A DNA stretch of 64,000 nucleotides from Escherichia coli (GTDB taxonomy: Bacteria; Pseudomonadota; Gammaproteobacteria; Enterobacterales; Enterobacteriaceae): the NCBI RefSeq assembly GCF_009931435.1, contig NZ_CP043414.1, one strand, 5' to 3'. The position numbers were made by a program, and so were the translations under genes. Positions 501-835 of this stretch are shown piece by piece (within the stretch, counting starts at the first letter, position 1; the number at the start of each line of letters is the position of its first letter). The notes beneath the pieces were generated by a model. That model had not been told where the DNA came from and did no database searches. It saw only the letters and a program-made list of their open reading frames with translations.

Positions 501-626
501 TCAAACCATCACCAGCGATAACTCTTTGCCAAGCGCCTTAGCCGCAAGCTGGACGGCGTCGATTTTTGTCGCATGGTGCAAGTTAAATAAGCGCGTAATT
601 TCCTGTTTAGGTTTGCCTAATATCAT
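501..626 (-). pseudogene. hicB: 3' remnant of antitoxin gene hicB (last ~38 codons); hicA and 5' hicB missing
   Basis: Minus-strand frame ending at TGA 503-501 reads ...GKPKQEITRLFNLHHATKIDAVQLAAKALGKELSLVMV, matching the HicB C-terminus as recalled; similarity stops near 618-626. Confidence 0.6.
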
Positions 627-835
627 GTACCCACAATAACACGAGGGGGTACAACAATGAACATCGGTAAAGCAATCATCAACTACGCAGCGCGTCGCAA
701 CATGGACATTACCTGATTGACGATGAGACCGTGGCGTTCTGGGAAGCGGATAACGATTGTGAATGGATGTTCTCCTACATGATTGGTAATGATGGTTTCC
801 TCCACTTTAAAGGCAATGTGTATCTGCTGTAGTGG

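What the first reader, a model, noticed from the sequence alone, without database searches (positions are those of the whole stretch)
501..827. hicB remnant and an orphan gene fragment cut off by the IS
Beyond the hicB 3' remnant, 627-827 carries a plus-strand reading frame (…IDDETVAFWEADNDCEWMFSYMIGNDGFLHFKGNVYLL) that runs directly into the IS terminus, preceded by a 19-codon ORF with a GAGGGGG Shine-Dalgarno. This looks like the 5' part of a cargo gene truncated by the IS. With hicA missing, any retained antitoxin fragment is non-functional.
Basis: seen in the sequence. Interest (0 to 1): 0.45.

Follow-up and report, generated by a model that had tools for sequence, protein, structure and literature searches.

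The report
Decayed prophage end inside hicB
The hicB stub and the broken reading frame beside it are the left edge of a prophage that once sat inside the hicB antitoxin gene and has since lost most of its DNA next to an insertion sequence; this is an ordinary genomic scar.

Summary
Window 501-614 (minus strand) holds the last 38 codons and stop of hicB, next to ydcR as in K-12. Window 657-827 (plus strand) holds a reading frame that runs into an IS3-family element at 828-2086.

The interpretation needs correcting on two points.
- The "19-codon ORF" and the "IDDETVAF…" frame are one gene. It is a 90-aa phage gene (PHROG family phrog_6147, function unknown). A one-base deletion at 714 splits it, and the IS truncates it after codon 57.
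- It is neither IS cargo nor an orphan. It is the outermost gene of a ~36-kb prophage that carries a large serine recombinase and integrates inside hicB, or inside ycdX in other strains, at a TT crossover.

In this window a deletion of about 32.7 kb next to the IS removed the recombinase and all structural genes. A 4.3-kb remnant is left at 615-4923. A second hicB piece lies at 4924-5050. A separate 444-bp deletion removed hicA and the first 59 codons of hicB.

All of these pieces are inert pseudogenes. The intact gene occurs in 35 of 5,426 complete E. coli genomes, and homologues occur in 423 phage records, many from virulent phage groups. Its predicted fold resembles an RWD domain. Interest is low.

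The parts
1..423 (-). 5' part of ydcR (PLP-dependent aminotransferase-family regulator). It is the conserved chromosomal neighbour of hicB and is included as context.
   Evidence: Annotated ydcR at the matching position in near-identical and related genomes. The window is collinear with them from base 1.
501..614 (-). hicB 3' remnant: codons 101-138 and the stop codon. This is only the distal part of the HTH_3 DNA-binding domain.
   Evidence: Identical to K-12 HicB 101-138. 93.9% nt identity to K-12. HicB domain layout is HicB_lk_antitox 3-67 plus HTH_3 88-134, and the remnant scores 16 bits against a cutoff of 23. RefSeq annotates it as a partial hicB in the near-identical genome.
613..614 (.). 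TT, the inferred crossover dinucleotide of the serine-recombinase attL junction (host arm | TT | phage arm).
   Evidence: Comparison of attB, attL and attR at the hicB and ycdX sites. Sequence left of TT is host-type. The base right after TT is phage-type (G, T or C) in attL and host-type in attR. This is an inference from sequence.
615..656 (+). Phage arm of attL (GCCTAATATCATGTACCCACAATAAC…), with a -10-like TATCAT (621-626) and the Shine-Dalgarno GAGGGGG (644-650) of the 90-aa gene.
   Evidence: The same arm abuts ycdX instead of hicB in other strains. The sequence is read.
657..827 (+). Pseudogene: codons 1-57 of a 90-aa phage gene (phrog_6147). A 1-nt deletion at 714 shifts the frame and creates the TGA stop at 714-716. 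The IS truncates the gene after 827.
   Evidence: Alignment to intact copies. Translations. phrog_6147 match at E = 8e-33 for the intact protein. 98.3% nt identity to the intact gene over 1-172.
828..2086 (-). IS3-family insertion sequence, 1,259 bp, with TG…CA imperfect inverted repeats. OrfA is at 1701-2012. OrfB is split between 1354-1656 and 836-1366. There is no target-site duplication (TGC on one side, GTA on the other).
   Evidence: Inverted repeats. Pfam HTH_Tnp_1 and rve. Full-length copies at 99% identity in other genomes. RefSeq marks the transposase as frameshifted. Flank sequences are read.
2087..4923 (.). Right-hand end of the same prophage. It holds the 3' part of an 80-aa gene (2087-2265, +), a small-terminase-like gene (2974-3540, -), an LprI-family gene (3887-4666, +), a terminator-like hairpin (4855-4879) and the phage arm of attR with TTGACT (4909-4914).
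   Evidence: 93% identical and collinear with L005 34414-37371, the right end of the intact prophage. phrog_57 and Pfam LprI matches. Terminator scan.
4924..5050 (-). Internal hicB fragment, about codons 61-100, starting with the TT of attR (4924-4925). In lysogens this frame would read …ARRIG-NPNVVNPK*.
   Evidence: 99.2% identical to K-12 L001 4187-4313. tblastn matches HicB 61-104. Annotated as a partial hicB in the near-identical genome.
5050..5051 (.). Junction of a 444-bp deletion that removed hicA, 44 nt upstream of it, and hicB codons 1-59.
   Evidence: K-12 L001 3743-4186 is missing. The junction reads GGCGAAG|TTTACCTCC with at most 1-2 nt of microhomology. Genomes with the intact prophage keep hicA.

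Best explanation
Window 501-827 is the left (attL) edge of a decayed prophage. The history below is the best-supported account.

1. A ~36-kb temperate phage encoding a large serine recombinase (LSR) integrated inside hicB. It recombined at a TT dinucleotide within the helix-turn-helix coding region, between HicB residues 100 and 101.
2. Integration left the last 38 codons of hicB next to ydcR (501-614) and the rest of hicB about 36 kb away.
3. The first phage gene inside attL is a 90-aa protein of family phrog_6147, transcribed inward toward the recombinase gene.
4. In this lineage an IS3-family element sits in codon 58 of that gene. About 32.7 kb between the IS and a point near the right end of the prophage was deleted. 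The IS has no target-site duplication, and its two flanks lie 32.75 kb apart in an intact relative.
5. That deletion removed the recombinase, so the remnant can no longer excise and hicB can no longer be restored.
6. The gene stub also lost one T at 714, which creates the apparent "19-codon ORF".
7. A further 444-bp deletion removed hicA and the 5' end of hicB.

Nothing in 501-827 is expected to make a functional product. Shown directly: homology, junctions, the frameshift, IS boundaries and the deletions. Inferred: the order of events, TT as the exact crossover, and the absence of any residual function.
For: - **Host synteny.** The hicB fragment is identical to K-12 HicB 101-138, and ydcR lies alongside as in K-12.
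- **Intact gene elsewhere.** Intact 273-nt copies align base for base to window 657-827 apart from the missing T, then diverge exactly at the IS end at 828.
- **Intact prophage.** Strain 2014EL-1346-6 has a ~36-kb element between the two hicB halves. Its gene order is: 90-aa gene, two small genes, a 559-aa recombinase with Resolvase + Recombinase + Zn_ribbon_recom domains, lysis, tail, capsid, portal and terminase genes, then an LprI-family gene at the far end.
- **Same phage at another site.** The same left and right phage ends flank ycdX in other strains, so this is a site-specific mobile element.
- **Deletion.** Window 1-827 matches L005 825-1652 and window 2097-5050 matches L005 34414-37371 in the same orientation. 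This is a simple internal deletion bordered by the IS.
- **IS.** Inverted repeats are found, and the unlike flanks TGC and GTA are read.
- **hicA.** It is absent from the window but present in lysogens that carry the intact prophage.
- **Rarity.** The truncated form occurs in only one of the 35 complete E. coli genomes that carry the gene. That genome is 99.97% identical to the window over 6.8 kb.
Against: - No expression data exist, so low-level translation of the 19-aa peptide or of a 33-aa product starting at GTG 731 cannot be excluded.
- The one-base deletion is seen only in the window and in one near-identical assembly. A shared homopolymer sequencing error is not formally excluded. Even so, the IS truncation alone would inactivate the gene.
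- The order of events is not determined. The deletion could have arisen by recombination between two IS copies or by an IS-adjacent deletion.
- None of the intact prophages has been shown experimentally to excise or to form particles.
Confidence: 0.9

Rival explanations
1. One reading: 627-827 is the 5' part of an independent cargo or island gene, preceded by a separate small upstream ORF. An IS truncated it, and the hicB damage is part of the same IS event.
For: The fragment is a 5' gene part that ends at the IS terminus. An SD-ATG precedes the 19-codon frame.
Against: Intact copies show a single 90-codon gene that spans both frames. The hicB break lies at a serine-recombinase att junction about 210 bp away from the IS. 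The same junction occurs in genomes with no IS there. The gene belongs to a complete prophage, not to the IS.
Confidence: 0.04
2. The split frame is a programmed ribosomal frameshift or another recoding site. The stub would then still yield a 57-residue N-terminal product with some activity, for example as a dominant fragment of the RWD-like protein.
For: A good SD is retained, and a -10-like TATCAT lies upstream. The conserved WEADNDCEWMFSY motif lies within the retained part.
Against: All 22 aligned homologues and 32 intact E. coli copies are single unbroken ORFs. The window differs by loss of one T from a TT, which looks like an ordinary mutation. The fragment lacks the invariant K62-E-E-L-P66 block, L75 and the C-terminal helix 72-85 of the predicted fold. 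The promoter-like -35 element that would face it in circular phage DNA has been replaced by hicB sequence.
Confidence: 0.03
3. The phage-derived ATG at 624-626 creates a new 41-aa minus-strand ORF (MIL + HicB 101-138). Its product would act as a mini HTH protein or antitoxin remnant, giving the hicB stub a residual function.
For: The ORF exists at 501-626 on the minus strand. It contains the recognition-helix part of the HTH_3 domain.
Against: It holds only profile positions 19-53 of 55 and scores below the Pfam cutoff (16 bits against 23). I saw no Shine-Dalgarno-like purine run in the bases just upstream of this ATG on the minus strand (rc of 627-645; own reading of the sequence, no tool result), and the promoter scan listed no minus-strand site immediately upstream of it. 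Its target operon hicAB has been deleted. In L005 the corresponding junction reads GCCAAATATCATG, so the ATG is a by-product of the attP arm and not a selected start codon.
Confidence: 0.03

Closest known systems
Prophages that integrate inside genes using large serine recombinases (for example Listeria A118/phi10403S in comK and Bacillus SPbeta in spsM; cited from general knowledge, not tested here)
   Same: The recombinase has Resolvase + Recombinase + Zn_ribbon_recom domains. Integration is inside a coding sequence with no duplicated gene end. The crossover is a 2-bp core. The target gene is split into two halves that precise excision would rejoin.
   Different: The target is the hicB antitoxin gene, or ycdX, of E. 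coli. I found no description of this in the searched literature and no close relative among deposited phage genomes. In the window the recombinase is gone, so the split is permanent. No regulated excision has been shown for any member.
PHROG family phrog_6147 (phage proteins of unknown function)
   Same: The intact 90-aa protein matches over 1-85 of 90 residues at E = 8e-33. Homologues of 89-101 aa share the WEADNDCEWMFSY and GN(I/V)YL…IKEELP motifs.
   Different: The window copy is a frameshifted 57-codon stub. The family has no assigned function and no Pfam, NCBIfam or PADLOC model.
RWD / UBC-like alpha+beta domains (Knl1, Mcm21, Spc25, GCN2 RWD)
   Different: Sequence identity is only 10-17%. 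Foldseek finds nothing significant in the PDB. No catalytic cysteine is conserved, since C35 varies to S, N or M. The resemblance is of fold only and says little beyond a likely role in binding other proteins.
IS3-family insertion sequences with adjacent deletions
   Same: 1,259 bp, TG…CA inverted repeats, OrfA with HTH_Tnp_1 and OrfB with rve. Its flanks are distant in the ancestral sequence and it has no target-site duplication.
   Different: The transposase frame is interrupted. This copy is probably immobile unless supplied with transposase in trans.

Membership tests
HicB antitoxin (type II HicAB) | N-terminal HicB-like, HicA-neutralising domain (Pfam PF15919) | tested here: not met
   K-12 HicB carries it at residues 3-67. 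The 501-614 fragment starts at residue 101. The other fragment (4924-5050) covers about 61-100. Codons 1-59 are deleted.
HicB antitoxin (type II HicAB) | Complete C-terminal HTH_3 DNA-binding domain | tested here: not met
   The remnant matches only profile positions 19-53 of 55 and scores 16 bits against a cutoff of 23. The insertion point lies inside the domain.
HicB antitoxin (type II HicAB) | Adjacent hicA toxin gene | tested here: not met
   No hicA anywhere in the 64-kb window (tblastn). A 444-bp deletion removed it.
HicB antitoxin (type II HicAB) | Orthologous position and sequence (next to ydcR) | tested here: met
   Residues 101-138 are identical to K-12 and the ydcR synteny is preserved. 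It is therefore a true hicB pseudogene fragment.
phrog_6147 phage protein | Full-length match to the family profile | tested here: met
   Intact orthologue: E = 8.3e-33, residues 1-85 on profile positions 1-88 of 91. The window DNA is 98.3% identical to that gene over nt 1-172.
phrog_6147 phage protein | Uninterrupted ORF of about 90 codons | tested here: not met
   A frameshift at 714 and IS truncation after codon 57. The window copy is a pseudogene member.
Integrated prophage with a large serine recombinase | LSR gene (Resolvase + Recombinase + Zn ribbon domains) | tested here: not met
   Present in intact relatives (L005 2982-4661). Absent from the window because the homologous stretch L005 1653-34403 is deleted.
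Integrated prophage with a large serine recombinase | attL and attR that recombine to give an uninterrupted attB with a 2-bp core and no long direct repeat | tested here: met
   Host arms at 613/614 and 4924/4925 rejoin to the K-12 hicB sequence. The same phage arms are found at ycdX. TT is the only shared core consistent with all junctions.
Integrated prophage with a large serine recombinase | Virion structural and packaging genes | tested here: not met
   Only a small-terminase-like gene remains in the window. Capsid, portal, large terminase and tail genes are present in the intact relative.
IS3 family insertion sequence | TG…CA terminal inverted repeats, OrfA (HTH) and OrfB (DDE/rve) | tested here: met
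IS3 family insertion sequence | Short target-site duplication from simple insertion | tested here: not met
   The flanks are TGC and GTA. They lie 32.75 kb apart in the intact prophage, which indicates a deletion and not a simple insertion.
Recombination directionality factor (considered for the 90-aa protein because it sits beside att, upstream of the LSR) | Occurs together with an integrase or recombinase | tested here: not met
   423 phage records carry homologues. They include records classified or sized like virulent groups (Stephanstirmvirinae, Drexlerviridae, T4-sized genomes), and the two regions I inspected (±3 kb) show no integrase near the gene. In Salmonella contigs it follows parA-parG.
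RWD domain | RWD fold | tested here: inconclusive

The most novel reading that the evidence does not exclude
In the intact phage, the 90-aa phrog_6147 gene may be the first gene of an operon (90-aa gene, two small genes, LSR) whose promoter is assembled only in circular phage DNA.

Joining the right and left phage ends gives TTGACT, a 17-nt spacer and TATCAT across attP. This lies about 30 nt upstream of the gene's SD and just downstream of a terminator-like hairpin. Integration replaces the -35 element with hicB sequence. Integration would therefore switch off the recombinase operon.

The 90-aa RWD-like protein is also common in the early-gene arrays of virulent phages. It would then be an early-expressed factor that binds a host protein, for example to counter a defence system or take over a host function. 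Separately, intact lysogens keep hicA together with a HicB that lacks its DNA-binding domain. Lysogeny could therefore rewire a chromosomal toxin-antitoxin system reversibly. None of this operates in the window, where the element is dead.
Probability: 0.2. Interest if true: 0.45.

Novelty: new member of a known kind. Interest (0 to 1): 0.12.

Why it matters
For this window it matters mainly as annotation.

- 501-5050 should be annotated as one prophage scar, not as separate oddities: a split hicB, a phrog_6147 pseudogene, an IS3-family element with an adjacent deletion of about 32.7 kb, the right end of the prophage, and a hicA deletion.
- The strain has lost the chromosomal HicAB system for good.

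More broadly, the intact relatives define a rare E. coli prophage lineage with a large serine recombinase. At least 32 of 5,426 complete genomes carry the intact marker gene, and I counted complete prophages in none of them systematically. The lineage targets hicB or ycdX at a TTTrGGw-TT-kCC-like site. I did not find it described in the searched literature. It could be a useful natural pair of attB sites and recombinases. It is also a test case for whether lysogeny modulates a toxin-antitoxin system.

The phrog_6147 protein is a widespread small phage protein with a confidently predicted fold and no known role.

Tried and rejected
- **Separate leader ORF plus cargo gene.** Rejected by the alignment to intact copies.
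- **RDF role for the 90-aa protein.** Rejected because homologues are widespread in phage groups classed as virulent, where the regions I inspected show no integrase nearby, and also lie beside plasmid partition genes.
- **Function from sequence.** No hits in Pfam, NCBIfam or PADLOC. The PDB sequence-profile search gave only E ≥ 0.07 noise.
- **Structured RNA.** No Rfam family in 1-5600.
- **Repeats.** Only the IS inverted repeats are meaningful.
- **Longer hicB remnant.** A tblastn alignment extending the HicB match out to window 749 is a chance extension. Beyond the identical 38-39 C-terminal residues only about 8 of 45 positions match.
- **Antisense ORF.** The minus-strand 40-aa ORF at 683-805 has no support. 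It lies antisense to a conserved gene.
- **Known phage relatives.** A DNA search of 50,697 deposited phage records with the left 8 kb of the intact prophage hit only IS1.
- **Literature.** Searches for hicB or ycdX as prophage integration sites, for the family identifiers, and for RWD anti-defence proteins found nothing relevant.
- **attP-spanning promoter.** It could not be tested by conservation. All available ends are closely related, and the same bases are constrained as recombinase binding sites.

Full report
**1. What is in the sequence**

Window 1-423 (minus strand) is the start of ydcR. Downstream of it in the K-12 gene order, the minus-strand ORF at 501-626 reads MIL-GKPKQEITRLFNLHHATKIDAVQLAAKALGKELSLVMV. 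Residues 4-41 are identical to K-12 HicB 101-138. The DNA at 425-621 is 93.9% identical to K-12.

On the plus strand, GAGGGGG precedes an ATG at 657. Window 657-716 translates to MNIGKAIINYAARRNMDIT*. Window 716-832 translates to IDDETVAFWEADNDCEWMFSYMIGNDGFLHFKGNVYLL*.

An IS3-family element occupies 828-2086. It has inverted repeats TGTAGTGG…/…CCACTACA, an OrfA with HTH_Tnp_1 and an OrfB with rve. The last sense codons and the TAG of the second frame therefore lie inside the IS.

**2. The two frames are one broken gene**

A megablast of 424-827 against 5,426 complete E. coli genomes found the ydcR-hicB part almost everywhere. Only 21 genomes had the whole query. Others had window 598-827 next to a different gene, ycdX.

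In those genomes the region is an annotated 273-nt gene. It encodes MNIGKAIINYAARRNMDITLIDDETVAFWEADNDCEWMFSYMIGNDGFLHFKGNVYLPQDIKEELPACIDTDKKLKEVINFIAKEFTSKK.

The alignment shows two differences in the window:
- One T is missing (ATTACC-TGATT versus ATTACCTTGATT, window 714). This makes the TGA at 714-716 and shifts the frame.
- Homology stops exactly at 827/828, where the IS begins (TATCTGC|CGCAGG in intact copies, TATCTGC|TGTAGTGG in the window).

The "19-codon ORF" is therefore codons 1-19, and the "fragment" is codons 20-57, of a single 90-codon gene.

**3. The gene is the outermost gene of a prophage integrated in hicB**

In strain 2014EL-1346-6 the two halves of hicB are about 36 kb apart. 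Between them, in order, lie:
- the 90-aa gene and two small genes
- a 559-aa recombinase with Resolvase, Recombinase and Zn_ribbon_recom domains
- lysis, tail, capsid, portal and large-terminase genes
- a small-terminase-like gene and an LprI-family gene at the far end

The same left end and right end flank ycdX in other strains.

Lining up attB, attL and attR for both sites gives:

| Site | Sequence |
|---|---|
| hicB attB | …TTTAGGT-TT-GCCAATTCG… |
| hicB attL | …TTTAGGT-TT-(G/T)CC(T/A)AATATCATG… |
| hicB attR | …ACATTCGGG-TT-GCCAATTCG… |
| ycdX attB | …TTTGGGA-TT-TCCGGGATG… |
| ycdX attL | …TTTGGGA-TT-(C/G)CCTAATATC… |
| ycdX attR | …ACATTCGGG-TT-TCCGGGATG… |

At ycdX the base after TT is phage-type in attL and host-type in attR. 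Sequence before TT is host-type in attL. The crossover is therefore the TT. This is an inference, but it fits the 2-bp cores of serine recombinases.

In the window TT is at 613-614 (attL) and 4924-4925 (attR). The insertion point lies between HicB residues 100 and 101, inside the HTH_3 domain. HicB has HicB_lk_antitox at 3-67 and HTH_3 at 88-134.

**4. How the prophage decayed here**

Window 1-827 matches L005 825-1652. Window 2097-5050 matches L005 34414-37371. Both are in the same orientation. The ten bases between the IS end and 2097 are a diverged continuation of the same gene.

The IS has no target-site duplication (TGC versus GTA). About 32.7 kb next to the IS is therefore missing, including the recombinase. 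The remnant at 615-4923 is 4.3 kb, of which 1,259 bp is the IS.

What survives on the right:
- the 3' part of an 80-aa gene
- two short membrane-like ORFs
- a small-terminase-like gene (phrog_57, E = 4e-13)
- an LprI-family gene (phrog_14799, E = 4e-109; Pfam LprI just above its cutoff)

The transposase frame of the IS is itself interrupted.

Beyond attR, 4924-5050 is hicB codons ~61-100 (99.2% to K-12). At 5050/5051 a 444-bp deletion joins this to a point 44 nt upstream of where hicA would start. It removes hicA and hicB codons 1-59. hicA is nowhere in the window. It is retained in genomes with the intact prophage.

A RefSeq genome, 2020CK-00188, is 99.97% identical over window 1-6827 and shows the same architecture. 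It is the only one of the 35 gene-carrying genomes with the truncation.

**5. What the intact 90-aa protein might be**

- **Family.** It belongs to phrog_6147, function unknown (E = 8e-33). It has no Pfam, NCBIfam or PADLOC match.
- **Homologues.** Twenty-three clusters of homologues (44-97% identity) share the invariant residues E30, D34, E36-W-M38, Y41, N54, Y56-L57, K62-E-E-L-P66 and L75.
- **Spread.** tblastn finds it in 423 deposited phage genomes. The listed hits include Stephanstirmvirinae, Drexlerviridae and genomes of about 160-170 kb. In the two regions I inspected it sits in arrays of small unannotated genes. In Salmonella contigs it follows parA-parG. In a 68%-identical E. coli variant it is again the first gene inside attL at ycdX, upstream of the recombinase.

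My best guess is a portable, non-enzymatic protein-binding accessory factor of phages. Candidates are host takeover or anti-defence. I put this at about 35% for the broad class, and nothing here tests it. A role as a recombination directionality factor is unlikely given its presence in phage groups classed as virulent, with no integrase in the regions I inspected.

**6. An untested lead**

Joining the phage ends reconstructs attP as …TTGGG**TTGACT**ACATTCGGGTTGCCTAA**TATCAT**GTACCCACAATAACACGAGGGGGTACAACAATG. This is a 10/12 match to the sigma-70 consensus with a 17-nt spacer. It lies directly after a terminator-like hairpin at 4855-4879 and about 30 nt before the gene's SD.

In the integrated state the -35 element is replaced by hicB sequence (ATTTCC). 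Transcription of the 90-aa gene and perhaps the recombinase operon would then be confined to circular phage DNA. Because these bases are also recombinase binding sites and all examples are close relatives, conservation cannot test the idea.

**7. Verdict**

The finding is a real but ordinary prophage scar. Both fragments are pseudogenes and nothing in 501-827 is expected to function.

The description of the gene as orphan cargo with a separate leader ORF is not.

Novelty is limited to the element lineage. An E. coli prophage with a large serine recombinase that targets hicB or ycdX was absent from the deposited phage records searched and from the literature library.

Noticed in passing
window 5050-5051: A 444-bp deletion relative to K-12 removes hicA, 44 nt upstream of it, and hicB codons 1-59. 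The junction reads GGCGAAG|TTTACCTCC with at most 1-2 nt of microhomology. Genomes with the intact prophage keep hicA. Among the genomes searched, only 2020CK-00188 shares this junction.
   Followed up: yes
window 4909-4925 joined to 613-626 (reconstructed attP): Joining the two prophage ends gives TTGACT-17 nt-TATCAT across attP. It lies just after a terminator-like hairpin (4855-4879) and about 30 nt before the SD of the 90-aa gene. Integration swaps the -35 element for hicB sequence. This could be a promoter that exists only in circular phage DNA.
   Followed up: partly
L005 37241-37771 (E. coli 2014EL-1346-6) and other intact lysogens: Where the prophage is intact, hicA is intact. hicB is truncated inside its HTH domain and would read …ARRIG-NPNVVNPK*. 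This leaves an antitoxin with its HicA-binding domain but no DNA-binding domain. Lysogeny might therefore derepress the hicAB operon until excision.
   Followed up: no
window 501-626, minus strand: The phage arm of attL supplies an in-frame ATG (624-626), which creates a 41-aa ORF (MIL + HicB 101-138). It is probably meaningless. I saw no SD-like purine run just upstream of the ATG (own reading), and the HTH match is below the Pfam cutoff.
   Followed up: partly
L002 7770-9528 (E. coli C325): In strain C325 the recombinase gene at the hicB site is truncated to 840 nt. It runs directly into a 5'-truncated molybdopterin-enzyme gene followed by ynfG, ynfH and dmsD. The matching prophage right end lies about 200 kb away on the opposite strand (H41). 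This suggests a large inversion or rearrangement with a breakpoint in the prophage.
   Followed up: no
window 3887-4666 (+): The surviving right end of the prophage carries an intact 259-aa LprI-family gene with a signal-peptide-like N-terminus (phrog_14799, E = 4e-109; Pfam LprI just above its cutoff). An AT-rich upstream region precedes it and a terminator-like hairpin follows. It may be a moron that is still expressed from the remnant.
   Followed up: partly
window 828-2086: The IS3-family element has complete ends, but its OrfB is split into two frames (1354-1656 and 836-1366). RefSeq marks the 99-100% identical copies I inspected in two genomes (2020CK-00188 and strain 550) as frameshifted pseudogenes; the other near-identical copies were not checked. 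Strain 550 and three others carry 7-8 matching places. The consensus for this IS may be poorly defined, or the lineage may move using transposase supplied in trans.
   Followed up: partly
L011 5056-6306 and L012 (Salmonella enterica contigs of about 22.6 kb): A 101-aa homologue of the 90-aa protein lies immediately downstream of parA-parG partition genes on ~22.6-kb Salmonella contigs. This suggests a plasmid or phage-plasmid context for the same family.
   Followed up: no
phage records MG065638, MG065675 and others: About 20 records named 'Campylobacter phage' (22-50 kb, unannotated) encode a ~51%-identical homologue. Its identity level resembles that of the homologues in E. coli T1-like phages. 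This is an odd host label for an otherwise enterobacterial family.
   Followed up: no
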